Part shown: one piece after another, positions 1-18,751 of the stretch
How the letters are laid out: every line of letters begins with the position of its first letter
How positions within the stretch are numbered: the first letter of the stretch is position 1
NCBI GenBank assembly: GCA_035264905.1
Contig: DATFPH010000324.1
Coordinates: 1-32,000, forward strand
DNA: 32,000 nucleotides
Origin: Thermoanaerobaculia bacterium
GTDB taxonomy: Bacteria > Acidobacteriota > Thermoanaerobaculia > Multivoradales > UBA5704
Reading direction: 5' to 3'
Position numbers and translations under genes: made by a program
Notes under the pieces: generated by a model
Seen by the model: only the letters and a program-made list of their open reading frames with translations
Database searches by the model: none
Told to the model about the DNA's origin: nothing

Positions 1-1
1 C

Positions 2-1678: not shown

Positions 1679-1708
1679 GCCTTGACCGGCTCTGCGATGC
1701 TCCTTAGC

Positions 1709-1945
1709 ATGTCGGACATGGACTACCACGACCGGATCGTCATCGACCCCGAGATCCGCTTCGGGAAACCCACGGTTCGCGGCACCCGCATCACGGTCGG
1801 CGATGTCCTCTCGTATCTGGCCTCAGGGATGAGCGAGGACGAGATCCTTGCGGACTTCCCCTCGCTCACCCGCGAGGACATCCGCGCCTGCCTGGGCTAC
1901 GCCGCCGAGCGGGAGCGCATCCTCTGGAGCGTTCCCGCTGCCTGA
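1709..1945 (+). CDS. DUF433-family small protein (antitoxin-like)
   Basis: ORF 1682..1945. DPEIRFGKPTVRGTRITVGDVLSYLASGMSEDEILADFPSLTREDIRACLGYA is the recognisable DUF433 signature. Start placed at ATG 1709 (MSDMDYHDR); 1682 or 1718 are also possible. No partner toxin ORF is adjacent. Confidence 0.75.
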   Translation: MSDMDYHDRIVIDPEIRFGKPTVRGTRITVGDVLSYLASGMSEDEILADFPSLTREDIRACLGYAAERERILWSVPAA

Positions 1946-3602
1946 GCCCGGCCCGAAGCTCCTGGCCTCTCCTGAGACTTCCGACCGCGAGCGCCGCTTC
2001 CTCTGGTTCCCCCTGGTCGGCTCGGTCTTCGCCGGGATAGGGCTCCGGCTGTGGAACCTGCTCGGGCAGGTCCTCGGCGGCGACGAGCTCCATGCGGTGC
2101 GGGCGGCGGTGGCGCGCACGGTGCCTGAGATCCTCACCACCTATTCGGTGGCCGACTCCTCCCTCCCCCTCACCGCGCTCTACCGCTGGCTGCTCGACCA
2201 CGGCGCGACCCTCTCGGAGCTCGCCTTCCGCGCGCCGTCGATCCTCTGCGGCGCCCTCGCGCTCGTCGTCATCCCGTACTCCTTCGCCGGGCGGGTGCCG
2301 CGCCAGGCGGTTCTGGTCTCCGCCTGGCTCGGGGCCATCTCGCCGGACCTGGTGCTCTACAGCCGCATCGCGCGTTCCTACCTGCCCATGCTTCTCAGCG
2401 GGTTCATCGCGGTCATGGCCTTCGAGGCCTGGTGGCGCACCCGCTCCTGGAAATCGGGGCTCACCTACGTCCTCTGCGGCGCGCTGGCGGTCTGGATCCA
2501 CCTCGGCGCGGCACCTTTCGTGGTGGCGCCGATCCTCTTCGCCCTCGGCGACCTGTTCACGCGGCGCGGCGAGCGTTGGGAACGGCTGCGCGGCCTGGCT
2601 GTGCTCGGTATGGCCTTGGCGCTCGCCTGTGCGGCTTTCCTCCTCCCCGCGCGCGCCTCGCTCGAACGGCTCGTCGCCAAGAAAAGCGTCGAGCAGAGCG
2701 TTCCCCTGAGCACCGTCTGGGACGTCCTCCGCCTCCAGGCCGGGACGCCCTCGCATACCGTCGCCGTCCTCTTCTGGATCGGCGCGCTCGCCGGCCTTGT
2801 CCTCCTCGTCCGCGACCGGCCGCGCTTCGGACTGTTCACGCTGACCATCGCCGCAGGCCACCTGCTGGGGCTGCGCATCCTCTCACCGCTGGGGCTGGAC
2901 CACCCGCTCCTCCTCAACCGCTACATGCTGCCGGTCCTGCCGTTCGTCCTCCTCTGGGTGGCGCACGCGCTCGGCCGGCTGTGGACGCGCAAAGCCGGCG
3001 GCTGCACCGGCTTCGTGGCGCAGCGCTATGCCACGCGCCTCCTGCTGCTGCTTCTCTTCTGGACCGGCCCCTTCCTCTCCCCGGGCTACCGCGACGGCTC
3101 CTTCATGCACCACAACGACTTCGTGGACTTCGTCCATCCGCGGGCCACCTTGCCGGACAATCTCGTGCCGGCGGTCTACCGCGACCTGCCGCGCGGTCCT
3201 GTGCTCGAAGCCCCATGGCCGACCGTCTGGGATCAAGGGCGTGTCTTCTACATCTACCAGGAGATCCACGACCGCCGGGTGCTCGTCTCGGCCCCTTTCG
3301 ACCTGCCGCGCCACCGCGGGATCGACTTCCGCAACGAGGTGCCCCCCGAGCCGCGGGCCCTCCTGGAAAGCCCGGCGCGCACCCTGATCGTCCACCTGCG
3401 CCTCCCCTGGGAAGAAGACCGGGTCCAGGCGCCGGGCCGGCCTCCAGCGCGGCCGATGCGCCTGGACGTCCGCCAGGCCTACCGCCGCGCCGGCGAGCGC
3501 CTCGCCGCTCAGCTCGTCGAAGCCTCGGGACCGCCCGACAAGACGGATGGATTCGTGCGGGTGTGGGATCTGGAGCGGGTGCGGCGAGCCCAATTGCAAT
3601 AG
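1848..3602 (+). CDS. Polytopic membrane protein, GT-C fold glycosyltransferase-like (PMT_2/ArnT-like)
   Basis: 584-aa ORF with many hydrophobic helices. An acidic motif (GGDELHAV) follows the first helix, as in GT-C (family 39/83) enzymes, and there is a large soluble C-terminal part. Start uncertain: the only canonical in-frame start upstream of the first TM helix is TTG 1848, which overlaps the DUF433 gene by 98 nt. Confidence 0.6.
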   Translation: MRTSPRSPARTSAPAWATPPSGSASSGAFPLPEPGPKLLASPETSDRERRFLWFPLVGSVFAGIGLRLWNLLGQVLGGDELHAVRAAVARTVPEILTTYSVADSSLPLTALYRWLLDHGATLSELAFRAPSILCGALALVVIPYSFAGRVPRQAVLVSAWLGAISPDLVLYSRIARSYLPMLLSGFIAVMAFEAWWRTRSWKSGLTYVLCGALAVWIHLGAAPFVVAPILFALGDLFTRRGERWERLRGLAVLGMALALACAAFLLPARASLERLVAKKSVEQSVPLSTVWDVLRLQAGTPSHTVAVLFWIGALAGLVLLVRDRPRFGLFTLTIAAGHLLGLRILSPLGLDHPLLLNRYMLPVLPFVLLWVAHALGRLWTRKAGGCTGFVAQRYATRLLLLLLFWTGPFLSPGYRDGSFMHHNDFVDFVHPRATLPDNLVPAVYRDLPRGPVLEAPWPTVWDQGRVFYIYQEIHDRRVLVSAPFDLPRHRGIDFRNEVPPEPRALLESPARTLIVHLRLPWEEDRVQAPGRPPARPMRLDVRQAYRRAGERLAAQLVEASGPPDKTDGFVRVWDLERVRRAQLQ

Positions 3603-3693
3603 ATCGGGCAACGACCAACGAGTCGCGGAAGCTTGAATCTCCACTTCTGCGGCCCCGATCGGACATGTTCAGGGGTGGGATTCCCTGGAATGC

Positions 3694-4107
3694 TCACTTG
3701 CGTTTCGTGGACTTCTTTCCGCCAGAAATATTGAGAGCGACGGCCTCGCGGATGAGCGCCTTGAACGCATTCGCGTCAATCTCCTCACCCTCGTGAATGT
3801 CGATGGCGCGCCTTACGTTCCCGTCGAGGCTCGAGTTGAAGAGCTTGGCAGGATCTTTCAAGGAAGCGCCCTTGAAGAAGGTCAGCTTCACGATCGACTT
3901 GTATGACTCTCCCGTGCAGATGCCCCCGTCATGAGACCATATCGGGGTCCCCATCCACTTCCACTCTTCCACAACATCAGGGTCGGCCTCCCTGATGAGG
4001 GCGCGCATCCTTGCTAGTGTATCGCCTCTCCAGTCACCCAACTCGGCAATCCTTTCGCTGATTAGTTGGGAGGCCGCCTCGCCTGCTGCCTTTGGTTGAC
4101 TCTTCAT
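3694..4107 (-). CDS. DUF1801 (YdhG-like) domain protein
   Basis: 137-aa ORF. EEWKWMGTPIWSHDGGICTGESYKSIVKLTFFKGASLKDP...IDANAFKALIREAVALN matches the pattern I know for the DUF1801/YdhG family. Confidence 0.7.
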   Translation of the reverse strand: MKSQPKAAGEAASQLISERIAELGDWRGDTLARMRALIREADPDVVEEWKWMGTPIWSHDGGICTGESYKSIVKLTFFKGASLKDPAKLFNSSLDGNVRRAIDIHEGEEIDANAFKALIREAVALNISGGKKSTKRK

Positions 4108-4338
4108 CTTCCTACCTTTCGTTGGGGATAGACCGCATTGCCCACGTTTCGGTTAACCGTCAGCTAGATTCGGGACCACGCAACCGCTCGGCGCAGCCGC
4201 TGAGGAGTAGGGAATGCTCGGAAGAAAACAACCCTGATCAACGTCTCCCTACATTCTGCCGTATCATCGCCGACCTCTGCTCCCCGAGGCGCCGAAGCCT
4301 CTCTATCTCATTGGTTCCACAGGACGATACGAAAGTTT

Positions 4339-4515
4339 CGCATGCTCGTCAACTCGCCGGCTTGTAGCGATATGTACATTGGATGGCGTCTACCGAGGCG
4401 TTCGTCTTATCCGTCATTTGACGATGCCGAAGGCTTGGCAGGAGGGCTTCTCCCCTGTCGATATGCACCAGGCACGCGGGTGCTCCGGGGCTTCTCCGTG
4501 TCGGCGAAGCGGCTT
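4339..4515. repeat. Copy A of a ~178-nt diverged direct repeat (partner at 10886-11063)
   Basis: Hand alignment to copy B, same orientation. First 41 nt are 35/41 identical (cgcatgctcgtcaactcgccggcttgtagcgatatgtacat). Last 29 nt are 26/29 (ggggcttctccgtgtcggcgaagcggctt). The middle is less conserved, with shared blocks ttcgtcttatccgtc and ggag-gcttct-cctgtcg-tatgc. Contains the 8-bp palindrome ATGTACAT at 4372-4379. Confidence 0.8.
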
Positions 4516-4596
4516 CGAGCTGAGGGATCACGGAACTGCGAAGCGCGTGCCTCGCAGGTTCGGTATGACGCACGCTGCGATACGTGACCAGCGCGT

Positions 4597-4960
4597 TCGA
4601 ACAGCTGACGCGTGGGAGGAGCCGAGTCGGGGCTGTCAACGTAGTTGAGGCCCTCGCCAATGGCAACAATCGCGTTGCACGGAGGAAGGAGCGCGCGTCG
4701 TAAAGCGAGCTCTCTACCAGGGTCGCGTCAGGCGCGCATGATGAGGCGAGCTCGAGCATGGCCGCGGATATGTCTATGCCGACCGCATTGTAGCCCGCCT
4801 GTGTAAGCGTGGCCAGAAATGAGCCGCTCCCACACCCCAGCTCAACCACCGTGCCGCTGTGGATTCCTGCCCGACGCAGAGTGGTGAGGATCCACTCTCC
4901 CGCTTGGCGAGAGAGCTCGCCGAAGCCGGCTTCGTCTATGCCAGTTTCCGGTGCTTGAAC
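4597..4960 (-). pseudogene. Class I SAM-dependent methyltransferase remnant (no start codon, frameshifted, C-terminus missing)
   Basis: Minus-strand translation gives IDEAGFGELSRQAGEWILTTLRRAGIHSGTVVELGCGSGSFLATLTQAGYNAVGIDISAAMLELASSCAPDATLVESSLYDA (motif I GCGSG). The homologous continuation LPPCNAIVAIGEGLNYVDSPDS is in another frame; the shift lies in the GCGCGCG run at 4691-4697. Upstream the frame closes at a TGA (4961-4963) with no ATG/GTG/TTG before the ORF-track GTG at 4849. No post-motif-II methyltransferase sequence is recognisable below about 4600. Confidence 0.65.
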
Positions 4961-5697
4961 TCACCGACGACTCCTTGTATGAGCTTGCGGTAAACGCCTG
5001 CACTATCGGATCTGTCAGATGCTGTTGGCTGGGCCGCCTCAAGGAGCGAAGCGAAATCGGCGTACGTGCTAAAGCCGATGTGCATGGTCGCAAGAATCTC
5101 CGCAAAGCGTGGCAGACTCGTGCCGAGACGAGATGGATGCCGGCTCAGAAATAGGCTAAGGTCTGTCTGAGCCGCCGCATTCTTGAGCTCAGCCGGATCG
5201 TCAAATCTTTCCTTCCATTGAGACGCGAAGTCGCCCCTACCCAGAAACCCTAAGTGATGAACCTTCTGGCGACCAGATTCAAGCTCCTCCGCAAGCCCCA
5301 GAAGAACGTACTTTAGGAGCTGGCTAATTCCACTCTTGGCCTCGATCTTCATCTCGATCGCGACAACGTTAGAATCCGACGTGAAGAAGAAATCGGGCTG
5401 GGTCGAGCCCGCCATGCCGTACGCTTCTTCGACACCTCGCCCGTGCATCCGGTGTTCACCGGAAAGGGCTCGGCCGAACAGCAGATTAAAGAACCGAGTG
5501 CGAACTGCCTCCGGCGCGAGCAGGAAGAACATGTTGAGGTTATGGTTCAAGGTTACTTCCATGGCTCGGAGGTGCGACTGGACCTTTTCCAATGAATTGA
5601 GCTTGGAGTCGATGTGCTTCTTCCTCCCGAGATGCTGCGGCTCCCAGTAGAAGAACTCGAGAGATTGATAGTAACTCTCTGTCCAAGAATCCTCCAT
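4936..5697 (-). CDS. PD-(D/E)xK (RecB/Cas4-like fold) nuclease-family protein, stand-alone
   Basis: ORF 4936..5814. Start moved to ATG 5695-5697, which has a strong SD (GGGGAGGG at 5703-5710, 5-nt spacer). Core motif QPDFFFTSDSNVVAIEMKIEAKSGISQLLKY gives D ... E-x-K followed by QxxxY, the classical restriction-endonuclease-like or RecB-family arrangement. Confidence 0.6.
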   Translation of the reverse strand: MEDSWTESYYQSLEFFYWEPQHLGRKKHIDSKLNSLEKVQSHLRAMEVTLNHNLNMFFLLAPEAVRTRFFNLLFGRALSGEHRMHGRGVEEAYGMAGSTQPDFFFTSDSNVVAIEMKIEAKSGISQLLKYVLLGLAEELESGRQKVHHLGFLGRGDFASQWKERFDDPAELKNAAAQTDLSLFLSRHPSRLGTSLPRFAEILATMHIGFSTYADFASLLEAAQPTASDRSDSAGVYRKLIQGVVGEFKHRKLA

Positions 5698-6074
5698 CTC
5701 AGCCCTCCCCCTATTTGTCGCAACCTCATACTCGATCCGGTGCCCGACGCACAACGGACAGGGATGGAGTTGAGCGAGCGGCGAGGTCCGCTCGGCTGGG
5801 TTCGCCGCCCCCACACAGGTCTACTACCGACCAGCGACCGCCCCCACTACCCCGCCCTTGAACAGCTCGAAGCAATACTACAGAAAGAGGTCCGGTATGA
5901 ACAGGCCAGTCGGCTCGCAACCGGCCGGGCTGTTGGGGCTCGGCCCTCCAAGGCAACGCCAGTGCGGAGGCGAAAACGCCAGCCCCTGGCAGAGAGTCGT
6001 GGCCGCCAGTCGCCTCCAGCCCCGAATTCCCCACGAGGTGCCACAAAGACGCGGCTTTGAGTTAGAATGGGTCT

Positions 6075-6293
6075 ATGCGAGTAACTACCGGAAGAGTCGT
6101 CAACGGCAAGATCGAGGTTCCTGACGAGGAGTTGACCGAGGGGATGGTTGTGACCATCTTGGCGCCCGAGGATCAGGGCACCTTCACCCTTGGCCCTGAA
6201 GCGGAGGCCGCCCTCTTGGCCTCGATCGAGGAGGCAGACCGGGGCGAGGTGATTTCGGGAGAAGAGCTCTTACGGGAGCTGCGGCGCGATTGA
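6075..6293 (+). CDS. Type II antitoxin (partner of the ParE-like toxin)
   Basis: 72 aa. Its stop overlaps the downstream toxin start (ATTGA, TTG 6290 / TGA 6291-6293). The C-terminal EAEAALLASIEEADRGEVISGEELLREL is typical of ParE-associated antitoxins. Confidence 0.7.
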   Translation: MRVTTGRVVNGKIEVPDEELTEGMVVTILAPEDQGTFTLGPEAEAALLASIEEADRGEVISGEELLRELRRD

Positions 6294-6601
6294 GTCCGCG
6301 GCTGCCGTTGCAAGTCACTCGCCGGGCCCGCCGCGAGATCCGGGCAGCCTCGGCATGGTGGGACGAAAATCGTCCTGCTGCACCCGACGCTTTCCGGGAT
6401 GCCATCGATAAGACATTCGAGCTAATTTGCACTCAACCGACCATAGGAGCGGTCGCAGCCAATGTCACGCTTCCTGGCGTGCGCCGCATTCTCTTAAGCA
6501 AAATTCAGTACTACCTCTACTATCGTGTAAAGAGCAACCCGCCCACGGTTGAAGTGGTGGCGATCTGGCACACGAGCCGATACCCAGATCTCAACCTTTA
6601 G
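6290..6601 (+). CDS. parE: ParE/RelE-family type II toxin
   Basis: 103 aa. TRRARREIRAASAWWDENRP...FRDAIDKTFELICTQP..G......PGVRRILLSKIQYYLYYRV....VEVVAIWHTSR is the ParE/RelE plasmid-stabilisation pattern. It has a 4-nt overlap with the upstream antitoxin. Confidence 0.8.
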   Translation: MSPRLPLQVTRRARREIRAASAWWDENRPAAPDAFRDAIDKTFELICTQPTIGAVAANVTLPGVRRILLSKIQYYLYYRVKSNPPTVEVVAIWHTSRYPDLNL

Positions 6602-7055
6602 TTCAGTTGAAGACAACCCGAGCCGGAAACTACTTCAGCATCTCCCTCTGTAAAGCTTGGACACGCAGATCCTCTGCTCGTAAATAGCGATCAATCGCCT
6701 CAAGAGCACGCGCAGATAGAAATAGCCGGCCACGTAGGTGAACCTCGCGCCTCACGACATCCTGCAGTTGTTTGCTTGTCTAAAGCAATTTCCTCAGCCG
6801 CTCGTCCTTTTGGCTTTCGGGCAGATCATGCCGCGGAGGATCCTTAAGCTCAAGCTCCCAGACTTCCTCCAGCGCGTCGCGAGCGTCGACCAAAGCTTAA
6901 GCTTAGGTATACGGCCTTCCGGAACTCCCACCGTTGCTGCTCAACCAGAGACCTCGCGAGACTATTGCCTATACTCTGCCGCTAACCTCTAATGCAGTAC
7001 TCCGCCACCGCTCGCGATGAAATCGCGAACACGAAAACAACAACTAACAGCCACG

Positions 7056-7391
7056 TCACCTGTACAGAGAGCTGATCATGACGAATGACATCCATAACGA
7101 AATCAAGCCGGCCAGGCCGGCGACAAGACTCCCTATCGCTCTGTTTATGAAAAGAACGAAACCCAAGATGTACAACAGCACTACGGCGCCAAGCAGACCG
7201 GGCGCCATCAAGATGAGTTTCGGATATCGACCAGGCGGAAACAGAGTTAAGCCAACTAGGACTGAGAAGAGGGCTATCGGAATTCCGGCCAGAAGCAAGA
7301 TCACCCCGTTATCCACATCAGTTGGGCTCTTCAGGAAACGCCCGAACCACTCTCGGTAGGTTTCCGGTTTGTTGGCTGGATCACCACTCAT
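7056..7391 (-). CDS. Small integral membrane protein (about 3 TM), last gene of the TIR cassette
   Basis: ORF 7056..7508 trimmed to ATG 7389-7391 (MSGDPANKPETYREWFGRFLK). The upstream 39 codons cover a GC-rich stem-loop and look non-coding. Hydrophobic helices: GVILLLAGIPIALFSVLVGLTLF, LILMAPGLLGAVVLLYILGFVLFI, IGSLVAGLAGLISLWMSFVMI. Confidence 0.65.
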   Translation of the reverse strand: MSGDPANKPETYREWFGRFLKSPTDVDNGVILLLAGIPIALFSVLVGLTLFPPGRYPKLILMAPGLLGAVVLLYILGFVLFINRAIGSLVAGLAGLISLWMSFVMISSLYR

Positions 7392-7435
7392 GGTCTTCTC
7401 GCTTTGCCTCCTGTGGCGCATAACGTTCCAAAGGT

Positions 7436-7478
7436 GAGCGGCGGGGGGGGCCGCACGAAGTGCGGCATCCGTCCGCTC
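7436..7478 (-). other. GC-rich stem-loop between the TIR-kinase gene and the downstream TM gene
   Basis: Perfect 7-bp stem gccgcac/gtgcggc (7450-7456 / 7460-7466) with a 3-nt loop. It is nested in an outer gagcgg/ccgctc pairing (7436-7441 / 7473-7478). No U-tract follows on the minus strand, so it is not a canonical intrinsic terminator. Function unknown. Confidence 0.4.
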
Positions 7479-7504
7479 GACCGCCTGGGTTGAACGCCAT
7501 ATAC

Positions 7505-8422
7505 TCACTTCTTTGGAAAGCGAACCGTAAACCTGGCCCCTCTAGGTCCACTACTTGTCAAGAGAACCTCCCCACCCTGTGCTGTCATCAAGCGCCGAGC
7601 CAGGTACAACCCAAAGCCACTGCCTGGTTTTGTGGAAGATCCCAAGTTGAATATTGTACTCTCTGAATGAATCGGCACGCCCGGGCCACCGTCGATGACA
7701 TGGCAGGAAATGGCAGTGCCGTCGTCTTGGCACTCGATACGGATCGTACTCTCCACAGGAGATGCATCAATTGCATTCACCGCTAGAGTCATCAAGACTT
7801 GAAATGTAGTGTTGAAAGGGACAGAAACTACAGTATCCTGAGGTACTACGCTCAAGAAATCTAACCTCTTTTTGTTTATGACAGGCCGGAGAAGGCCTTC
7901 GATTCTATCGATTACCTCATGTAGCCGAGAAAACTGCTCACCTTGTGCTCCATTCTTCCCAACCTTACTCTCAGTCTTCACGGCTAAGTTCAAGAATTGA
8001 GCTCTTTGTTGGAGAGCACCCATGAGACGCTCGTACCATCTAGGGTCCGCACGACTGACCCACTGCCACTTACGTAAGCGCTCGGGGACTTCGCATTGAT
8101 CCAACTTAAGAGGGATTACAAACATTGTACCCTCTGGCTGTTCATCTGCCAAGTCCAAGATATATCGAATCTCTTTCTGTATATACCCTACTTTACTCGT
8201 CGAATTCTGTGAAATGCACACCAAGACAATGTCAGAAGTCCGGATAGCCTTCGTAATCTCCAAATGCCAGTCCTGGCCCGGGAGTAAATCCTCCTCATCG
8301 AACCATGGCTCTATTCCATCAGCAAGAAGTTGGCCATAAAGGTCACGCACTACCGGCTTGTCCTGCGAAGAATGGCAAAGAAATACTCGCAGAAGACGCC
8401 TGGGGTCAACCGTTGCAATCAT
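7505..8422 (-). CDS. TIR domain fused to a histidine-kinase core (DHp-like + HATPase_c); no TM or classical sensor domain
   Basis: 305 aa. The TIR_2-like N-terminus is about aa 12-135: RVFLCHSSQDKPVVRDLYGQLLADGIEPWFDEEDLLPGQDW...IRTSDIVLVCISQNSTSKVGYIQKEIRYIL...FVIPLKL. The candidate catalytic Glu is E84. H-box-like FSRLHEVIDRIEGLL (H168). N-box LMTLAVNAIDA, G1 DGGPGV, F/G2 IFNLGSSTKPGSGFGLYLARRL. Typical kinase end GGEVLLTSSGPRGARFTVRFP. Confidence 0.8.
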   Translation of the reverse strand: MIATVDPRRLLRVFLCHSSQDKPVVRDLYGQLLADGIEPWFDEEDLLPGQDWHLEITKAIRTSDIVLVCISQNSTSKVGYIQKEIRYILDLADEQPEGTMFVIPLKLDQCEVPERLRKWQWVSRADPRWYERLMGALQQRAQFLNLAVKTESKVGKNGAQGEQFSRLHEVIDRIEGLLRPVINKKRLDFLSVVPQDTVVSVPFNTTFQVLMTLAVNAIDASPVESTIRIECQDDGTAISCHVIDGGPGVPIHSESTIFNLGSSTKPGSGFGLYLARRLMTAQGGEVLLTSSGPRGARFTVRFPKK

Positions 8423-8775
8423 ATTCCATCGCTTAAACTATGTGCCGAGCCGTCTGGCGTTCAACGAGATGGCGCTCACCGGCGGCGCCAGCCGTCCGGT
8501 GCAGCGCCGGGGTTCGCCGGCATTCTCTGTCTTCTCTGGGCCATCTGCTTCTCGCCGGAATCTGCCTCTCGAGATGCCCCTGCGTCACGGCGGTTCAACG
8601 GCTGCAGAAATTCTACCGCACCTCATTGTCAAGTGCCAGAGTTCCCGCGGAACCTTCCCCCGCTGTTTTGACACTGTAGGAGACTGGGAAATCTCCTCCG
8701 TCGCTCTTGTGCGCGTCCGAAGCCCTTGTAGGGAGCAGCCAGAAGGAACTTGCGGCATGGCGAAGAGGTACGCGA

Positions 8776-9066
8776 CTAGAAGGCGAGGCCCAGGAAGGGC
8801 GGTGCGAAGTACCACAAGAGTACTGAGTTGGCTGCGATGCCGATCAGGGGAATCAGAAGAGCCGCTCGGACCGGTCGGAGATTGAGCAGCATACCGACGA
8901 TGCCGGTGACCAAGCCCACCGCGCAGAGAACGACCAACAAGAGACCCGCTTGCACGAACCCCCCAAAGTCGTCGTGGCTCGCCACGCGGCCCTGCGCCGT
9001 CAGTAGGGCTGCAACCGCGATCAGGGCAGCTATCCAGGACGTATAACTCGCAACAGCGCGCACCAT
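8776..9066 (-). CDS. Small integral membrane protein (3 TM)
   Basis: ORF 8776..9090 trimmed to ATG 9064-9066, which has GGAGG (9074-9078) 7 nt upstream. Helices: WIAALIAVAALLTA, VQAGLLLVVLCAVGLVTGIVGMLL, AALLIPLIGIAANSVLLWYF. Confidence 0.65.
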   Translation of the reverse strand: MVRAVASYTSWIAALIAVAALLTAQGRVASHDDFGGFVQAGLLLVVLCAVGLVTGIVGMLLNLRPVRAALLIPLIGIAANSVLLWYFAPPFLGLAF

Positions 9067-9192
9067 CGTGTGGCCTCCGGTCTGCTCCATAAATAGTGAT
9101 GAATTGGAGAAAGTGGTCGTAGTGTCGGCGAACGTTCCTGCCGATGAGCGGCGGCTTTGCCGTCCGCTCGATCGGTCGTGTTATGCGCCGGC

Positions 9193-9672
9193 TCATCCCA
9201 GTCCAAGCAGCGAAAGTGCTCTGGCAATCGTATTGCCATGTCTCGCAAGAGCCTCCTGGGTTCTCCGGATGATTTCCCCTTTTCGCGTTTCCCTGAGGAA
9301 GCTTTCATCGTGGGCCTGTTCGGAAAGAACGGCCAAAGCTCTCCTAATGTCATCGGGATCCTTGACGCGGCCGACTTGGAGCACAACCTTCGCAGTGTCA
9401 GTCGGCCGGTCGAGCAGTTCCTCCTCAGTAATGACGATCAAGGGCGCGGCCAAGCCCTTCAGCCCATGTGTATTCTTGAAGCGTAAGTTCGTATCCTTAC
9501 CGAGCAGGACGCTGAGGTGGCAGTGCTGGGCAGGGAGATGATCGGCCAAGGTGAAGAGTGCGTCCATGAGTGTTTGCTCCGCCATCGTACGAAAGCCGTC
9601 GAGAACGACCGTCAAATAGTAGCGACAGCCTGGAGGACTGTCCCCTCCCGTCGCGATGGCTAAGCGTGCCAA
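9193..9672 (-). CDS. Receiver-like (CheY-fold-like) protein with a C-terminal Fis-type HTH that is cut short by the stop codon
   Basis: TTG start 9670-9672 with a strong SD (GGGAGG at 9679-9684, 6-nt spacer). LTVVLDGFRTM resembles CheY beta1 (FLVVDDFSTM). PLIVIT resembles beta4 (PVLMVT). RVKDP resembles the beta5 Lys (VKPF). The C-terminus EALARHGNTIARALSLLGLG resembles the first two helices of the Fis/NtrC HTH_8 ([12 protein letters not shown]...). The assignment is by eye only. Confidence 0.45.
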   Translation of the reverse strand: MARLAIATGGDSPPGCRYYLTVVLDGFRTMAEQTLMDALFTLADHLPAQHCHLSVLLGKDTNLRFKNTHGLKGLAAPLIVITEEELLDRPTDTAKVVLQVGRVKDPDDIRRALAVLSEQAHDESFLRETRKGEIIRRTQEALARHGNTIARALSLLGLG

Positions 9673-9691
9673 AATAATCCTCCCTAGTCTC

Positions 9692-9940
9692 TCAAACCTT
9701 CATCGTCTCTGTCAGGGCAATGAATTCTTGGTCACCCCTGGAACCTACAATTGCATTCGGGGCATTCGGAACCCCCACACTTAGAGTCTTCGGTTTGGTC
9801 AGTGGAACAAGAAAGGACAATCCCGCTGCGGCTAACGTGGGGCCGGTAAAACCCCAGGAGTCGACAGCGAGAAGGCTCCTAAGGCCCCATTCGAACAGGA
9901 GAAGTAGCAGAGGGAAACCGTAAATTAGCACTCCGTACAT
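9692..9940 (-). CDS. Small integral membrane protein (2 TM)
   Basis: 82 aa. ATG 9938-9940 with GGAGG (9946-9950) 5 nt upstream. Helices: VLIYGFPLLLLLFEWGL and GPTLAAAGLSFLVPL. Confidence 0.6.
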   Translation of the reverse strand: MYGVLIYGFPLLLLLFEWGLRSLLAVDSWGFTGPTLAAAGLSFLVPLTKPKTLSVGVPNAPNAIVGSRGDQEFIALTETMKV

Positions 9941-9998
9941 AGTTACCTCCTAAGCTCCTACCTACCACGCATAACGTGATTGCGGCTGAGCGGATGCG

Positions 9999-10751
9999 TC
10001 AGCAGTCCGCTCGAGCCGCCGTGTTAGCCGTCTCTTTATTTTCTGGATTCGGGAGTCGATCGTACCACTCCTTCAGTGTACGCCGACTGTAGAGCTTCAG
10101 TTGTACTTTCTGGCTCGGATGGAGACACGACAGGGAGAGACGTGGTTCCTCGCAGCCAATTCGAAGGGCCACAGCACAAATTGCTTCGCCCAGCCGCAGC
10201 CAGGCCTTCGCAGAGAGCTCAAGTACATCCTCCTTGAAAGGCTCCAGCCGCCAGACTCTCTCGACACAAGGCAAGGTATTCTCATCCTCACTGCCATCAT
10301 CATCCGGCAAAACGCCACAAATATCCTCTCCTACATTTTTGACTGCCCAAAGATAGCGGCGCATAGCCGTGTCACTATTCTGTTGAGGGTCAATGGACTG
10401 CACTAGGCCAAACTTTATACCATTCCCCTTAGTAATACCAACTGCACCTGAGCTATTTGGCAGCAGCATGCCTCTATGGACTATAAAGTCTCGATGTTTA
10501 GCCAGGAAGTGAAGAAGCGGATCGTTCCTCAGCACCTCCCGCTCTCCTCTGTACCACTCACTAAAGCCCGGCTCATTCTGAAGTTCCATGGCTATGAGTT
10601 GCGGCACCTCTTTCAGTGAGCGCAGGAATCCACCTAAACTCCACCGGAATTCGTCGGCAAAGTGGTAGTACTGCTCCATGGCATGAAGATGAAAATGCGC
10701 CTCTTCAAAGCGATCCATGGATGCAGGCGTCTTTTCCTTCAGCTTCAACAT
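9999..10751 (-). CDS. Hypothetical protein with an Rx4H motif (possible HEPN-like), first gene of the cassette
   Basis: 250 aa. ATG 10749-10751 with GAGGGT (10759-10764) 7 nt upstream. The helical N-terminal half (FEEAHFHLHAMEQYY...FLRSLKEVPQL...LHFLAKHRDFIVHRG) contains RDFIVH (aa 87-92, nt 10476-10493). This fits the HEPN Rx4-6H consensus. I cannot name a family. Confidence 0.55.
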   Translation of the reverse strand: MLKLKEKTPASMDRFEEAHFHLHAMEQYYHFADEFRWSLGGFLRSLKEVPQLIAMELQNEPGFSEWYRGEREVLRNDPLLHFLAKHRDFIVHRGMLLPNSSGAVGITKGNGIKFGLVQSIDPQQNSDTAMRRYLWAVKNVGEDICGVLPDDDGSEDENTLPCVERVWRLEPFKEDVLELSAKAWLRLGEAICAVALRIGCEEPRLSLSCLHPSQKVQLKLYSRRTLKEWYDRLPNPENKETANTAARADC

Positions 10752-10885
10752 CGAAATTACCCTCGGCGGCTAACCTTGTGTGCTTCGATGTCTCCCCACA
10801 CTCTGCCGTATTGCCGCTGGCGCCTGCTCTCATACCGCCTCGGGGCCCGCTATACAACTGATCCTTCAATATGTTACGAGGCATT

Positions 10886-11063
10886 CGCATTCTCGTCAAT
10901 ATGCGGGCTTGTGGCGATATGTACATCTGCGGCACTCGACGGGCAATTCGTCTTATCCGTCGGCGGACGACTCCCAAAGCTCCCGACGGAGGAGCTTCTT
11001 TCCTGTCGGTATGCGCCTCTCGTTCGGGTCGGCAGGGGCTTATCCGTGTCCGCGAAGCAGCTT
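10886..11063. repeat. Copy B of the ~178-nt diverged direct repeat (partner at 4339-4515)
   Basis: Same orientation as copy A (alignment in the copy A entry). Palindrome ATGTACAT at 10919-10926. TTATCC cores at 10953, 11040 and 11062, plus TTATCT at 11085 just outside the aligned block. Confidence 0.8.
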
Positions 11064-11283
11064 ATCCAGGGGGGTGTTGGGGGCTTATCTGCTCGTGAGG
11101 TGTCGGCGAGGGTCGCAGCCTTCTGGAATGCCGCCAGCGCCCCCTCGAGGCGGATGTCCGGCAGCGGCAACCTCGACGCCCCCTGGCGGGCCACGATGCC
11201 GAGGAACAGGCTGAACATCCCGGCCGGCGCGCCTCGGAGTACGTCCGCCACGGAACCCGGATTCAAGTATTCGCTCACCGGGC

Positions 11284-12207
11284 AGAAGCCTTTTCGCCGC
11301 GGGGAGTTTCCCGGTGCTCCCGGGGAGTTTCCCGCGCCTCCCGGGCAGGAGTACTTGCGTACCGGGTAAGAGCCTTTACGCCGCGGGAATTTCCCCGAGA
11401 GCCGCGGACGAAAGTACTTGCGTACCGGGTAGGAGCCTTTGGGCCGCGGGAGATTTCCCGCGAGCCGTGGGGAAGAGTACTTGCGTACCGGGTAAGAGCC
11501 CAAGAGCCCCGGGCCGAAGTACTTGCGTGCCGGGTGAGAGCCTTTGGGCCGCGAGAGATCTCCCGCGGGCTGCGGGGAAAAGTACTTGCGCGCCGGGTAA
11601 GAGCCCGAGAGCCGCGGGCGTTCGTACTTGCGTGCAGGGTAAGAGCCTTTACGCCGCGGGGAGAAGTACTTGTTTACCGGGTGAGAGCCTTTGAGCCGCG
11701 GGAGATTTCCCGCGAGCCGCGGGGAGAAGTACTTGCGTACCGGGTAATTGCCCGGTAGCGCCGGGTAATTGCCCGGGAGCCGCGGGCAACTCCCCGGGAG
11801 CCGCCGGGAGCTTCCGGCTGAACGCGGGTTGGAGACCGCGAGGCGCGGGTGAGACCCCGAGAGGTCCGGGTCAGCTCCCGGGCGGCGCTGGGCAAGACCC
11901 GCGAGCTACAGGCTGGAGCCCGCGAGCCGCGGGGCGGAACCCGGGAGGCGCGGGGGACTCCCCGGAAGCCGCGGGTCAGCTCCCGCGAAGCGCGGGTTGG
12001 CGCCCGCAACCCAAAGGCTGGAGCCGGGGAGGCGTGGACTGGAGCCCGCAAGGTCCGGGGTGGAGCCCGGGAGGCCTGGGCAAGAGCCGGCGAGCCACGG
12101 GGTGAAGCCCACGAGTCCCCGGCTGGAGCCCGCGAGGCGCGGGTCAATGCCCGAGCGACCCGGGTCTTCCTCCGCGAGCCGAAGTCTGGAGCCGGGGAGG
12201 CGACCAG
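11284..12207. repeat. Tandem array of 44 phased 21-nt units (degenerate), with 63/42-nt higher-order structure in the left half
   Basis: Units were written out by hand. The unit boundary stays in exact phase at 11284+21n at every checkpoint tested: units 4, 7, 10, 12, 15, 17, 19, 22, 27, 31, 36, 41 and 44. Right-half consensus is about TGGAGCCCGCGAGGCGCGGGT. In the left half, units 4, 7, 10, 12, 15, 17, 19 and 22 carry AGTACTTGCGTACCGGGT, alternating with AAGAGCCTTTNNGCCGCGGG and GATTTCCCGCGAGCCGCGGG types. Most units contain CCCGCG..CGCGGG inverted pairs. Confidence 0.9.
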
Positions 12208-12210
12208 GGT

Positions 12211-12243
12211 AGCCGGCGAGAGCCCGCGGCCGGTTACTTTTTT
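12211..12243 (+). terminator. Intrinsic-terminator-like hairpin + T6 at the right edge of the 21-nt array
   Basis: agccggc (12211-12217) pairs with gccggtt (12229-12235), 7 bp with one G:U and an 11-nt loop. It is followed by AC and TTTTTT (12238-12243). The orientation implies plus-strand transcription through or out of the array. Confidence 0.4.
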
Positions 12244-12319
12244 GCCGCAGCCCCTGTCTAAGAGAGTGGAGGTCCCAAGAGCGGGACCTTCGAGACCTCT
12301 GTTCTCAGGGAGGACGCCC

Positions 12320-15300
12320 ATGTTCCGGACCGTCTCGCTTCTCGGCTTGCTCGCCCTCGCCGCCGTTGGTTTGACCTCCGGCCTGGCGCAGGACAAGGCA
12401 GGCTCCGGCAGTCTCCGGCCCGCCGCTGCTGCTGCTCCCGCGACTACCGTGGCCAGCTTCACGCCGGCCTCGTTCCGATTCTCGAAGACCACGGCCGATC
12501 AACCCGAAACCGAGCCGGAGGCGCCGGTCCGCCTCACCGCGACCGACGGGACGGGTCTCTCCCTAGTCGCCCTGGAGGCGAACGGCGTGCTGGAGCCGCC
12601 GCTCGCGTTCACCGAGCTCCACCTCACCTTCGAAAACCCCCGCGACCAGATGATCGAGGGGCGGTTCCGCATCGCCCTGCCGCCGGGCGCCGCACTCTCC
12701 CGCTTCGCCATGAAGATCGGCGACTCCTGGCAGGAAGGGGAAGTGGTGGAGCGCCAGCGCGCCCGCGTGGCCTATGAGGACTTCCTCCACCGCCGGCAGG
12801 ATCCGGCGCTCCTGGAGCAGGAGGCGGGGAACGAGTTCTCGGCCCGTGTCTTCCCGATCCCGGCCCGGGGCCGTAAAGAGATCATCGTCTCCTATTCGCA
12901 CGGGCTGACCCGGGCGGACGAGCCGTACGTCATCCCGCTCCTCGGGCTCTCGGAGGTCGGCCAGCTCGACGTCCGCGTGCTCCTCGGCGAGCGCCCGGCC
13001 GGCGGTTTCCCGGAGAACACGGCGGCGAGCAACCTCGGCGGCGAGGTCCGTGACCGCCGCGTCATCGAGCTGCACAAGCGGAGCTGGACGCCGGACCGCG
13101 ACTTCGAGGTCGGCCAGGAGCAGGTCGCGGGCCGCGCCGGGCTGCGGCACGACCACCTCGCCGTGGTGCGCGTCGCGCCGGTCGTCGAATCGGCGCCGCA
13201 GGAGATTACCGGCCTCTACGTGCTCGTCGATTCGAGCGCGTCGCGCGCCCTCGGCTGGAAAGCCCAGGTGCGCCGTCTCACCGAGCTCGCCGGCGGCCTG
13301 CGCGACGGCGCCGGCAGCGCGACGCCGCTGGGTATCGCCGCGTTCGACCAGGTGGTCGTGCCGGTTTTCGAAGGCACGGCGGGCGGGTTCGGCGCCGCCG
13401 AGGTGCAGAGCCTCGGCGCCCGCCGTCCGCTCGGTGCGTCGGACCTGCAGAGCGCTCTCACCTGGCTGGCCGGCCGGCTGGGCGAGGAGCGCGCACAGTA
13501 TCCGCGCGTCCTGCTGCTGACCGACGGCGTGGCCACCGCCGGAGAGACCGAGACGCGGGCGCTCAAGGCGGCGGTACAGGCCCTGGGCGCGCAAGGCGTC
13601 GAGCGCCTCGACGTGCTGGCCGTCGGCGGGCTGCGCGACGACGCGGTGCTGCGGGAGCTGACGACCGGCAACCTGAAGCACGACGGCCAGCGCCTCGACG
13701 GTGGCGCTCCGCTCACCGAGATCTCCCGCCGGCTGACCCTCGCCAGCCGCTCCGGCATCCAGGTGGCGGTCGAGGGAGCGACCTGGGTCTGGCCCGAGAC
13801 CCTCGACGGCATCCAGCCCGGCGACCAGGCTCTGGTCTATGCCGACCTGCCGGCGGACCGGCCGCTGCGTCTCTCTCTGGCCGGCCAGCCCTTGACGCTC
13901 GCCGGTGAGCTGGCGCCCGCCGAGCGGCCTCTGCTCGAAAGATCCTGGGCGCAGGCTCGCATCGAGCGGCTGCTGCACCTGCGCGACACCGAGCACGCCG
14001 GCGACGACGACCTGCGCCGGGCTCTCGCGTTGCAGGTCACCGAGCTCAGCATCCGCCACCGGGTGCTCTCCCCGTATACCGCCCTGCTGGTGCTCGAAAC
14101 CGAGGCCGATTACGCGCGCTTCGGCCTCGACCGCCGGGCCCTCGCCGACATCCTGACCGTCGGCGCAGGTGGGCTGGACGTGCTCGCCCGGAAGCAGTCC
14201 GGCGCGTCCGGGGGGACCCGGATCGCCGTCGAGACCCGGCAATCGACGAAGACCGACTTCGATACCTTCGAAGCCCCAGGGCCCGAGGGCGAGCCTGCGA
14301 TGCCGCTCGACGTGGAGGATGGCGTCGAAGGCGGAGTCGAGGGAGGCGTGGAAGGTGGTGTGGCCGGAGGCGTGGTCGGAGGCGTTGCCGGCGGTGCGAT
14401 CGCGGTCCAGGCCACTGAGGTGCCCCCGCCGCCGATGGCCGTGCCGTCGCCCCCGCCGCCGCCAATGGCGCGTCCGCGGCCGGTCGAGTCGGACGAGGCG
14501 CCCCTGCGCGTCGGCGGAAATGAACAACCCCTGGCGGAGACCATCAGCGCCGAGACTCCGCGGCGAGACCGCGAGGAGGAGAAAAGAAAGATGGTTGCGC
14601 CGTACTCCGGGCGTTTCGCCGAGGTCATGGAGCACCTCGCCGCCGGCCGGACCGCGCGGGCGCGCGCTCGTGCCGAGGCCTGGAGCGCCGAGGAGCCGGG
14701 CGACGTGCTGGCCCTGCTGGCACTGGGCGAGGCCTGGGAGGCCGTTGGCGAGAAAACCGCGGCGGCGCGGGCCTACGGCTCGCTGATCGACCTCTTCCCG
14801 AGCCGCGTCGACATGCGGCGGCTGGCCGGCGAGCGTCTCGAACGGCTGGGAGAGGCGGGGCGCGCCCTGGCGATCGACACCTACCGGAAAGCCGTCCAGG
14901 ACCGGCCGGACCACCCCTCGGGCCATCGTCTCCTCGCCTGGGCCCTGCTGCGTGCCGGCCGTTTTGCGGAAGCCTTCGAGGCGCTCGAAACCGGCCTGGA
15001 GCAGGACTACCCCGGTGGGCGCTTCCTGGGAGCCGACCGCATCCTGCGGGAAGACTTCGGCCTCCTCGGCGCCGCTTGGCTGCGCGCCGAGCCGTCCCGC
15101 CGCGAAGAGGTCCTCGACCGCCTCCAGGCCCACCAGGCCCGGCTGGAGAGCGAGCCCTCCCTGCGCTTCGTCCTCACCTGGGAGACCGACGCCAACGACG
15201 TCGACCTCCACATCTGGGACCGTCAGGACAACCATGCCTACTTCAGCCAGAAGAAGCTGGCCTCGGGAGGCGAGCTCTACGAGGACGTGACCACCGGCTA

Positions 15301-18150: not shown

Positions 18151-18229
18151 CGGACCTTCGCAACTGGCCTAGGGTGGAACCGATCGACCGGACAGGAGAT
18201 ACATCCTGGCTCGCGTCTGGAGGTGCCCC

Positions 18230-18751
18230 ATGAATGCGAAGCTGTTCTCGCGATATGCGATTCTCACGGCTCTTTGCGCCGTTCTCCTCGTTGGCGTGCC
18301 CCTGATGGCGGAGGACGACGACAAGGGAGAATCGAAGGCCGAGATGGCCCTCAAGAACCGCGCGACGCCCCCCAAGGCAGCGGAGATGGATGCGAACGCC
18401 ACGATCCAGGCGCTGCTCGAGAAGAAGGGGCCGGCGGACTGGTCGAACAAAAAGGGTGCTCGGTTGGAGGGGTACGTCGTTCAGGTCGAGAAAGAAGACG
18501 ACGGCGATGTCCATCTGGTCCTCGCAGCCAAGCCGGGTGAGACGAACACGCAGAGCTGGGTGATCACGGAAGTGCCAGCGGCTTTGCAGAAGAAAAAGTC
18601 CGAGCTTTCGGAAAAGTCCCTGAAATCCCTCGTTGGGCAGTACGTCAGCGTGTCCGGTTGGCTGTACCGGGAGCCCGACGGGGAGCAGGGCGATCCCCGC
18701 GGGACCCTGTGGGAGATCCATCCGGTGACCGAGATCAAGAAACTGGAGTAG
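18230..18751 (+). CDS. Secreted hypothetical protein
   Basis: 173 aa. GGAGG at 18219-18223, 6 nt before the ATG. Signal peptide MNAKLFSRYAILTALCAVLLVGVPLMA. No recognisable domain. Confidence 0.6.
   Translation: MNAKLFSRYAILTALCAVLLVGVPLMAEDDDKGESKAEMALKNRATPPKAAEMDANATIQALLEKKGPADWSNKKGARLEGYVVQVEKEDDGDVHLVLAAKPGETNTQSWVITEVPAALQKKKSELSEKSLKSLVGQYVSVSGWLYREPDGEQGDPRGTLWEIHPVTEIKKLE

What the first reader, a model, noticed from the sequence alone, without database searches (positions are those of the whole stretch)
7505..8422. TIR domain fused directly to a histidine-kinase catalytic core
The sequence shows a TIR_2-type N-terminus with a Glu (E84, nt 8171-8173, in GYIQKEIRYIL) at the position of the catalytic Glu of NADase TIRs. 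An H-box-like helix follows (FSRLHEVIDRIEGLL; H168, nt 7919-7921). Then come complete N, G1, F and G2 boxes (LAVNAIDA, DGGPGV, IFNLGSS, GSGFGLYLARRL). There is no TM segment and no PAS, GAF or HAMP domain. So the TIR is either the sensory input or a kinase-regulated output. I do not know of a characterised TIR-kinase fusion, so this claim rests on memory and needs a database check.
Basis: partly seen in the sequence, partly recalled or inferred. Interest (0 to 1): 0.8.

Follow-up and report, generated by a model that had tools for sequence, protein, structure and literature searches.

The report
TIR enzyme fused to orphan kinase ATP-domain
This gene joins a TIR domain that probably cleaves NAD+ to only the ATP-binding half of a histidine kinase, without the histidine-bearing part, so it is a rare, undescribed fusion that cannot signal as a normal kinase.

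Summary
The 305-aa ORF at 7505-8422 (-) is real. Residues 12-143 are a TIR_2 domain (E 9.7e-26). E84 sits at the position of the Glu in PdTIR and of residue 77 in SPARTA TIR-APAZ. Residues 166-303 are a complete histidine-kinase ATP-binding (CA) domain with N, G1, F and G2 boxes.

FSRLHEVIDRIEGLL is the first helix of the CA domain: it aligns to the CA-only ThkA construct 3a0t, and the model superposes on it at 2.2 Å. H168 is L, L, G, G in the other family members. No DHp helical hairpin and no phospho-acceptor His is present. TIR and CA are joined by a disordered linker of about 20 residues.

The CA domain comes from a subfamily whose full-length members (~950-aa kinases, P0122 with a GAF domain) do have a DHp His and an adjacent receiver protein. 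Among at least 4,946 proteins with this TIR type, only six clusters carry HATPase_c. Four lack a DHp, and one (P0075) is a full TIR-DHp-CA kinase.

The gene lies in a low-GC island (0.49 vs 0.68) with no conserved partner gene. The most likely function is a TIR NADase effector regulated by an exapted ATP-binding domain. This is a new variant of the known "TIR plus variable C-terminal domain" proteins, of moderate interest.

The parts
7505..8422 (-). TIR-CA gene, 305 codons plus stop
   Evidence: ORF and translation. The start agrees with the N-termini of P0004 and P0271. Gene GC is 0.49 against 0.68 for the window outside the island.
7994..8389 (-). TIR domain, aa 12-143 (strands and helices from βA to αE)
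   Evidence: Pfam TIR_2 E 9.7e-26. The AF2 model shows alternating β/α elements at 12-143 with pLDDT mostly around 90. It is 58-67% identical to thousands of TIR proteins that carry other C-terminal partners.
8171..8173 (-). E84 codon, the predicted catalytic Glu of the NADase
   Evidence: Aligns to the Glu in 3h16 and 7uxr and to residue 77 of the SPARTA TIR-APAZ chains. Invariant in alignments A1, A2 and.
7928..7993 (-). Flexible linker, aa 144-165
   Evidence: pLDDT below 50 at residues 152-162. Only 5-26% identity between the query and the other members.
7514..7927 (-). Histidine-kinase CA (HATPase_c) domain, aa 166-303, with no DHp
   Evidence: phmmer to the CA-only ThkA construct 3a0t, E 6.2e-10, aa 166-304. 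Foldseek to 3a0t: TMt 0.81, rmsd 2.2 Å. Pfam HATPase_c.
7919..7921 (-). H168 codon: not a phospho-acceptor, lies in the first CA helix
   Evidence: The residue is L, L, G, G in the homologs.
7775..7777 (-). N216, the N-box Asn (Mg-ATP ligand in kinases)
   Evidence: Invariant in all five DHp-less members.
7679..7693 (-). G1 box, D244-G248 (DGGPG)
   Evidence: D244, G246 and G248 are invariant.
7607..7624 (-). G2 box, G267-L272 (GSGFGL)
   Evidence: G269, G271 and L272 are invariant.
7056..7391 (-). Downstream small predicted membrane ORF (111 aa from the ATG at 7391). A functional link is unproven.
   Evidence: ORF. GGAGG lies upstream of the ATG at 7391. No family hit in any library. It is not conserved next to the homologs.
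3600..10800 (.). Low-GC island that holds the gene, probably horizontally acquired
   Evidence: GC is 0.46-0.64 here against about 0.69-0.76 in the flanks. Island GC is 0.56 against 0.68 for the rest. It contains a ParE toxin pair and ORFs with no family match.

Best explanation
This is a single-chain effector-regulator protein.

The N-terminal TIR domain is the output. It is an NAD+-cleaving or NAD+-derived signal-producing enzyme that uses E84, and like other TIR NADases it should be active only when TIR domains self-associate.

The C-terminal domain is the ATP-binding (CA) domain of a histidine kinase that has lost its histidine-bearing DHp dimerisation domain. It can still bind ATP, but the protein cannot autophosphorylate in the canonical way. 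I infer that it has been exapted as a regulatory nucleotide- or ligand-binding module that sets whether the TIR domains associate and fire.

Shown: the domain identities, the absence of a DHp and phospho-acceptor His, retention of the catalytic Glu and the ATP-binding residues, the rarity of the fusion, and its island location. Inferred: NADase activity, ATP binding, and the direction of regulation.
For: The TIR is catalytically equipped. E84 aligns with the Glu of NADase TIRs and is invariant across the family.

In this TIR family the N-terminal TIR is the constant part. It is 58-67% identical across at least 4,946 proteins, while the C-terminal partner varies: FGE-sulfatase/FGS, HTH, cold-shock, PAS, REC, EAD and others. 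That matches an effector-plus-variable-sensor layout. Kaur et al. read the C-terminal FGS domains as direct ligand binders. TIR-REC fusions with an intact acidic pocket (P0288) give a within-family precedent for TIR as the regulated output.

The CA domain lacks a DHp and phospho-acceptor His. Yet N216, D244, G246, G248, K265, G269, G271 and L272 are invariant in all five DHp-less sequences, even though the query's CA domain is only 28-36% identical to the others overall. ATP binding is therefore under selection.

The CA half evolves about twice as fast as the TIR half, 28-36% against 58-64% identity, as expected for a sensing surface.

No partner gene is conserved next to any homolog, which fits a self-contained protein. 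The gene lies in a low-GC island beside a ParE toxin pair, and P0271 lies near a PemK toxin. That is typical accessory or conflict-gene territory.
Against: There is no biochemical evidence. Neither ATP binding nor NADase activity has been tested. No known defence-system model matches beyond the TIR domain itself. The neighbouring genes are uninformative. The AF2 model gives no confident interdomain contact (pTM 0.55), so no regulatory interface is visible. Retained ATP-binding residues are equally compatible with a trans-acting kinase. P0271 has a degenerate F box and T264E, which hints at some relaxation. The family is tiny: six clusters in 5.8 billion proteins.
Confidence: 0.4

Rival explanations
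1. It is a trans-acting kinase module. The CA domain is a working kinase that phosphorylates a separately encoded DHp or HPt protein, for example the parent kinase or another TIR-family protein. The TIR would act mainly as a homotypic adaptor that recruits the CA domain to a TIR-bearing partner.
For: All ATP-binding and catalytic CA motifs are retained. The CA domain belongs to a genuine two-component kinase subfamily with a DHp His and an adjacent 552-aa receiver protein. The same TIR type is fused to REC domains (P0288, P0091) and to a complete DHp-CA (P0075). From established knowledge, isolated CA domains can phosphorylate DHp domains in trans (EnvZ domain complementation; the split CheA3/CheA4 kinases).
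Against: The window has no DHp, HPt, REC or second TIR ORF, and none lies next to the homologs except an unrelated X-TIR_2 protein beside P0004. An invariant catalytic Glu is unexpected for a pure adaptor TIR. The CA surface diverges fast, which is the opposite of what a conserved docking partner would predict.
Confidence: 0.2
2. The CA domain is a decaying relic of a former TIR-DHp-CA kinase such as P0075. Only the TIR domain matters, and the protein behaves like a TIR-only protein.
For: The DHp is absent. The CA half is much more divergent than the TIR half. P0271 has a degenerate F box and T264E. Many family members are TIR-only proteins of 150-230 aa.
Against: The DHp-less architecture, with nearly the same length (304-305 aa), persists across lineages whose TIR halves are only about 58-64% identical. 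Eight ATP-binding residues are invariant against a background of about 30% identity for the query's CA domain. The AF2 model folds the CA domain with pLDDT around 90. There are no frameshifts or stops.
Confidence: 0.15
3. The CA domain is an integrated decoy. It mimics the ATP-binding domain of the host's own kinase/receiver system. When a phage or plasmid factor that targets that kinase binds the decoy, the TIR domains assemble and deplete NAD+.
For: The CA domain derives from one specific kinase subfamily and evolves fast. Kaur et al. propose inactive enzyme domains acting as decoys in conflict systems. The gene lies in an island.
Against: This is purely inferential. No invader factor that targets such kinases is known here. 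Retention of the ATP-binding residues is not required of a decoy. I could not check whether the parent kinase is present in the source genome.
Confidence: 0.1
4. One reading: a compact but complete histidine kinase that autophosphorylates on H168, with the TIR as its input or output.
For: A His lies in a helix upstream of the N box, and all the CA boxes are present.
Against: H168 lies in the first helix of the CA fold. It is L, L, G, G in the homologs. No HisKA or DHp is detected. There is no helical hairpin to dimerise. H168 is only 48 residues from the N-box Asn, whereas in EnvZ the spacing is about 104 (H243 to N347, from memory). In related kinases the DHp His lies about 60 residues upstream of this CA domain's start.
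Confidence: 0.02

Closest known systems
Bacterial N-terminal TIR proteins with variable C-terminal domains (TIR-FGS, TIR-HTH, TIR-EAD and others), discussed as conflict-system components by Kaur, Burroughs, Iyer and Aravind 2020 (PMC7159879)
   Same: The TIR subtype is the same, at 58-67% identity. It is N-terminal and is followed by a short linker and one variable domain.
   Different: The C-terminal partner here is a histidine-kinase CA domain. That paper reports no histidine kinase domains among its vWA-associated effectors. No vWA, MoxR or STAND partner genes lie nearby.
Class I sensor histidine kinases (ThkA, HK853, ZraS, AtoS), and specifically the ~950-aa kinase subfamily represented by P0122 (GAF domain) and P0129
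   Same: The CA domain is homologous: 36-42% identity to P0122, P0129, P0130, P0134 and P0136, with the shared motifs CHVxDxGPG and LGxSTKxGxGGxGLYL. The fold matches 3a0t at 2.2 Å.
   Different: There is no DHp, no phospho-acceptor His, no sensor domain and no cognate receiver gene. The parent kinases have all of these.
TIR NADase defence effectors: SPARTA TIR-APAZ, Thoeris ThsB, AbTir/PdTIR
   Same: TIR fold, with the Glu at the catalytic position. The best PADLOC hit is the short-pAgo-associated TIR (Aga_TIR, E 1.8e-13, TIR region only).
   Different: No pAgo, ThsA, SAVED, RT or NLR partner is present. The PADLOC matches cover only the TIR domain.
SARM1 (ARM-SAM-TIR), an analogy drawn from established knowledge
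   Same: A TIR NADase whose activity is set by a fused allosteric nucleotide-binding domain in the same chain.
   Different: The regulatory domains are unrelated (ARM against a GHKL ATP-binding fold). There is no SAM oligomerisation domain. Regulation here is hypothetical.
DHp-less GHKL protein kinases SpoIIAB/RsbW (HATPase_c_2)
   Same: A histidine-kinase-like ATP-binding domain that works without a phospho-His DHp.
   Different: The HATPase_c_2 score is 23.7 bits, below the 27.4 cut-off. There is no STAS or anti-sigma partner nearby. The sequence is clearly closer to true histidine-kinase CA domains.
P0075, a metagenomic 394-aa TIR-DHp-CA protein
   Same: Same TIR type and an HATPase_c domain.
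   Different: P0075 carries an extra segment of about 90 residues with an H-box-like AAEFAHKMNNLAG. It may be a true TIR-histidine kinase. The window protein lacks this segment entirely.

Membership tests
Two-component sensor histidine kinase (class I, HisKA/DHp + HATPase_c) | DHp helical hairpin carrying the phospho-acceptor His (H box) | tested here: not met
   No HisKA-type Pfam hit. The candidate helix is the first CA helix. H168 is not conserved. Relatives carry their DHp His in a segment that is absent here.
Two-component sensor histidine kinase (class I, HisKA/DHp + HATPase_c) | CA domain with N, G1, F and G2 boxes | tested here: met
   HATPase_c E 1.5e-15. Motifs are present and conserved. 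The fold matches isolated CA domains.
Two-component sensor histidine kinase (class I, HisKA/DHp + HATPase_c) | Cognate response regulator encoded nearby or elsewhere | tested here: inconclusive
   No REC-domain ORF was found among the 20 window ORFs scanned with Pfam. The rest of the genome could not be searched.
Two-component sensor histidine kinase (class I, HisKA/DHp + HATPase_c) | ATP-dependent autophosphorylation | not testable with these tools
   Requires a biochemical assay.
Enzymatic (NADase) TIR domains | TIR fold | tested here: met
   TIR_2 E 9.7e-26 and TIR E 1.2e-8. AF2 secondary-structure pattern with high pLDDT. PDB sequence hits to 7uxr, 3h16 and the SPARTA TIR.
Enzymatic (NADase) TIR domains | Catalytic Glu at the start of helix αC | tested here: met
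   E84 aligns with the Glu of 3h16 and 7uxr and with residue 77 of SPARTA TIR-APAZ. That residue 77 is the catalytic Glu is from my memory of the SPARTA literature. E84 is invariant in the family.
Enzymatic (NADase) TIR domains | NAD+ cleavage or cyclic-ADPR production | not testable with these tools
   Requires an enzyme assay.
Known TIR defence systems (Thoeris, SPARTA, CBASS/Pycsar TIR effectors, retron-TIR, TIR-NLR) | System-specific partner gene or fused sensor (ThsA, pAgo, SAVED/cyclase, RT, STAND NTPase) | tested here: not met
   The PADLOC hits cover only the TIR region. The neighbours have no PADLOC, Pfam, NCBIfam or PHROG defence match.
Anti-sigma-factor-type GHKL Ser kinases (HATPase_c_2) | Match to HATPase_c_2 above the curated threshold | tested here: not met
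   23.7 bits against a cut-off of 27.4.
TIR-X family (conserved N-terminal TIR plus variable C-terminal domain) | N-terminal TIR of this subtype, at least ~55% identical, followed by a heterologous C-terminal domain | tested here: met
   at least 4,946 relatives at E <= 1e-10 with dozens of C-terminal partners. The query TIR is 58-67% identical to them.

The most novel reading that the evidence does not exclude
A histidine-kinase ATP-binding domain, stripped of its phospho-accepting DHp, has been recruited as an allosteric switch for a TIR NADase. It would act either as an ATP/ADP (energy-state) sensor or as an integrated decoy of the parent kinase/receiver system. A more speculative version is that the domain holds ATP next to the TIR active site as an acceptor, giving an ADPr-ATP-like signal of the kind known from plant TIRs. 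Any of these would be a new way of coupling GHKL nucleotide binding to NAD+-based signalling or cell suicide.
Probability: 0.3. Interest if true: 0.7.

Novelty: new variant of a known kind. Interest (0 to 1): 0.45.

Why it matters
TIR domains are central NAD+-consuming immune effectors in bacteria, plants and animals, and how each is switched on is the main open question for every new family. In this protein the candidate switch is the ATP-binding half of a histidine kinase, separated from the part that normally accepts the phosphate. If ATP binding controls TIR activity, this would be a compact model for nucleotide-gated TIR activation. It would also be an example of a two-component-system part reused outside phosphotransfer. 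The related P0075 protein suggests that complete TIR-histidine kinases also exist, which would link two-component signalling directly to NAD+ chemistry. The family is very small, however, and no function has been tested, so the practical impact is currently modest.

Tried and rejected
1. H168 as phospho-acceptor: rejected.

2. Word-index homolog search with the C-terminal half alone found only the protein itself. The exhaustive HMMER search was needed to place the CA domain.

3. Pattern scans of the GTDB representative genomes and of JGI metagenome contigs with the C-half alignment returned only generic kinases. L005 looked promising but is an ordinary OmpR/kinase pair.

4. Conserved neighbourhood: none. 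I inspected the contexts of P0004, P0075, P0126, P0271 and P0281.

5. The downstream small membrane ORF as a SLATT-like or pore effector: no family hit, it is not conserved beside the homologs, and its likely start at 7391 leaves a gap of about 113 nt rather than a coupled overlap. I dropped it as a partner but list it under parts.

6. L029 as independent context: rejected, because it is 99.989% identical to window 1-18350.

7. Plasmid and phage records hold no TIR-CA relative. The Enterobacter 'ATP-binding protein' that covered 86% of the query is an ordinary kinase next to a response regulator.

8. The Ea47-like annotation of the 250-aa ORF was not reproduced and gave no functional lead.

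9. Monophyly of the TIR-CA catalytic domains: a rough NJ tree puts them all inside the parent-kinase CA clade but not together. The tree is too weak to decide between one fusion event and several.

Full report
**The observation**

The ORF at 7505-8422 on the minus strand is real and encodes 305 residues. Pfam finds TIR_2 at residues 13-125 (E 9.7e-26) and HATPase_c at 207-304 (E 1.5e-15), and it finds no HisKA-type phospho-acceptor domain. The start codon agrees with the N-termini of the homologs P0004 and P0271. The fusion is not an assembly artefact. The same two-domain layout, at almost the same length, recurs in independent samples: P0004; P0126/P0354; P0271 on six contigs from JGI, ENA and Logan; and near-identical copies of the window protein in three datasets.

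**The TIR half**

An AlphaFold2 model (mean pLDDT 83.9) shows alternating strands and helices at 12-143, with the first five 10-residue blocks after the N-terminus at pLDDT around 90-94. E84 in GYIQKEIRYIL aligns with the Glu of PdTIR (3h16) and of 7uxr, and with residue 77 of the SPARTA TIR-APAZ chains. I recall that residue as the catalytic glutamate; this rests on my knowledge, not on a tool. E84 is invariant in 30 of 30 aligned family members, together with the FLCHSxxDK and WxDExxLLPGQ motifs.

**The 'H-box' does not hold**

- phmmer against the PDB aligns residues 166-304 with residues 7-147 of the CA-only ThkA construct 3a0t. This pairs FSRLHEVIDRIEGLLRPVINKKRLDF with NLNELIREVYVLFEEKIRKMNIDF.
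- In the model this stretch is helix 166-184, which packs as the first helix of the CA α/β sandwich.
- Foldseek superposes the model on isolated CA domains over about 140 columns: 3a0t at TMt 0.81 and rmsd 2.2 Å, 8dwz at TMt 0.90 and 1.8 Å.
- H168 is L, L, G, G in the other four DHp-less members.
- Between the last TIR helix (129-143) and the CA domain there is only a linker of about 20 residues. It is disordered (pLDDT below 50 at 152-162) and poorly conserved.

The protein therefore has no DHp hairpin and no phospho-acceptor histidine.

**Where the CA domain comes from**

An exhaustive HMMER search with the C-terminal half found 71,921 kinase CA domains, none closer than about 43% identity. 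The best matches form a distinct subfamily sharing CHVxDxGPG and LGxSTKxGxGGxGLYL. Its full-length members include proteins of about 950 aa (P0122 has a GAF domain). They carry a DHp-like segment with a conserved His (FLHDIRNL, LIHQLTNM) about 60 residues upstream of the point where the query's CA domain begins. These kinases sit in a conserved operon, with a 552-aa receiver-domain protein whose start overlaps the kinase stop. The TIR-CA lineage thus took only the ATP-binding domain of a genuine two-component kinase.

**How common it is**

A profile search with the four-protein alignment A1 ranks proteins that match both domains first. Among at least 4,946 proteins with this TIR type, only six clusters carry HATPase_c:

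| Cluster | Length | Layout |
|---|---|---|
| Query (P0001) | 305 aa | DHp-less |
| P0004 | 304 aa | DHp-less |
| P0126 | 276 aa (N-terminally truncated) | DHp-less |
| P0271 | 305 aa | DHp-less |
| P0281 | 359 aa | helical spacer, no clear H box |
| P0075 | 394 aa | ~90-residue insertion with an H-box-like AAEFAHKMNNLAG; possibly a true TIR-histidine kinase |

(Layouts.) Pattern scans of the GTDB species representatives and of JGI metagenome contigs found no further members, and neither did plasmid or phage records. No held paper contains both 'TIR domain' and 'HATPase'. Kaur et al. [quoted passage not shown] The 2020 TIR survey does not mention such fusions. I could not query InterPro architectures directly, and fusions involving other TIR subtypes would have been missed.

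**Family logic**

The TIR is the constant module. It stays 58-67% identical while the C-terminal partner changes: FGE-sulfatase/FGS, wHTH, GerE, sigma-70 region 4, cold-shock, PAS, CHAT, EAD, REC and others. Kaur et al. read C-terminal FGS domains as direct ligand binders and note inactive enzyme domains as possible decoys. TIR-REC (P0288, with an intact acidic pocket) and REC-TIR (P0091) fusions show that this TIR type is wired to two-component parts elsewhere.

Between the query and the other DHp-less members, the TIR halves are 58-64% identical but the CA halves only 28-36%. Even so, N216, D244, G246, G248, K265, G269, G271 and L272 are invariant in all five sequences. ATP binding appears to be under selection while the rest of the CA surface changes quickly.

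**Context**

The gene's GC content is 0.49, against 0.68 for the window outside a low-GC island at roughly 3.6-10.8 kb. The island holds a ParE toxin with an upstream small ORF and ORFs with no family match in Pfam, PADLOC, PHROGs or NCBIfam. The window has no tRNA gene and no other TIR or kinase ORF. The contexts of the homologs share nothing: P0004 sits beside an X-TIR_2 protein, P0271 near a PemK toxin, and P0281 between pheST and plsY. The protein therefore looks self-contained. The rest of the window encodes a TonB-dependent receptor with a CarboxypepD_reg domain, an M16 peptidase and a VIT-TPR protein. That suggests a diderm soil bacterium, possibly Acidobacteriota, but the taxon was not established.

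**Mechanism**

Best explanation (confidence about 0.4): a single-chain TIR NADase effector whose self-association and activity are set by a DHp-less, ATP-binding kinase domain reused as a nucleotide or ligand sensor.

| Rival | Confidence | Main point |
|---|---|---|
| Trans-acting kinase recruited through TIR-TIR contacts | about 0.2 | Supported by intact motifs and by the TIR-REC and TIR-DHp-CA relatives; weakened by the lack of any partner and by the invariant catalytic Glu |
| CA domain is a relic | about 0.15 | Weakened by motif invariance and stable architecture |
| Integrated decoy of the parent kinase | about 0.1 | Purely inferential |

All activity statements are inferred. Only the domain anatomy, conservation, rarity and context are shown.

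**Verdict**

The protein is a new variant of the known 'TIR plus variable C-terminal domain' kind. It is not a member of the histidine-kinase family in the functional sense, because the defining DHp/His feature was tested and not met. Interest is moderate (0.45). The fusion is real, rare and undescribed, and it offers a clean test of nucleotide-gated TIR activation. Against that, the family is tiny, the context is uninformative and the most striking claim (a complete TIR-histidine kinase) fails for this gene.

Noticed in passing
window 6075-6293 (+) and 6290-6601 (+): A small ORF overlapping a ParE_toxin-family ORF (E 8.8e-11). This looks like a ParDE-type toxin-antitoxin pair about 900 bp from the TIR-CA gene, on the opposite strand.
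   Followed up: partly
window 11300-12140: A dense tandem-repeat array with a 21-nt period (also 42, 63, 105 and 147), GC-rich, lying ~500 bp beyond the right edge of the low-GC island. It runs into the 5' end of the 1280-aa VIT+TPR ORF (11849-15691). The overlapping ORF translations look like heptad-like peptide repeats.
   Followed up: no
window ~3600-10800: A low-GC island (0.56 against 0.68) made mostly of ORFs with no family match. No tRNA or integrase was seen in the window. By eye, the 292-aa ORF at 4936-5814 (-) has a PD-(D/E)xK-like 'SD...VAIEMKIEAK' pattern. This was not tested.
   Followed up: partly
window 9999-10751 (-); L029 7600-8352: The 250-aa ORF upstream of the TIR-CA gene is flagged PF26900 (Phage_lambda_Ea47) in the precomputed annotation of the same-genome contig L029. 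My Pfam scan and a tblastn against phage records did not reproduce any match.
   Followed up: partly
L023 3660-12336; L024 448-9124; L025 5001-10668: The parent kinase subfamily of the CA domain lies in a conserved, apparently uncharacterised operon. The core, seen in all three loci, is a ~950-aa kinase (P0122 with weak GAF hits), a 552-aa receiver-domain protein with an overlapping start, and an unknown protein of 390-480 aa. L023 and L024 also have a 443-aa Metallophos-like protein upstream and a sigma-54 activator downstream. In L025 the operon is flanked by transposases.
   Followed up: no
P0288, P0091; L027 49-4239: The same TIR subtype is fused to receiver domains in both orders (TIR-REC and REC-TIR). 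It is also embedded in a 1,396-aa annotated 'protein kinase' on a Candidatus Chlorohelix allophototropha plasmid.
   Followed up: partly
L001 2821-3702: Directly downstream of the TIR-CA homolog P0004 is a 293-aa protein with an unknown N-terminal domain and a C-terminal TIR_2. Its TIR matches the PADLOC candidate system PDC-S66 (E 1.5e-21).
   Followed up: partly
P0002-P0351: This TIR subtype is unusually well conserved: most of the hits listed are about 55-68% identical over roughly 140 residues, out of at least 4,946 relatives, with dozens of C-terminal partners. Sources named include Chloroflexota, Acidobacteriota and an ANME-2 archaeon. This suggests strong constraint over the whole domain.
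   Followed up: no
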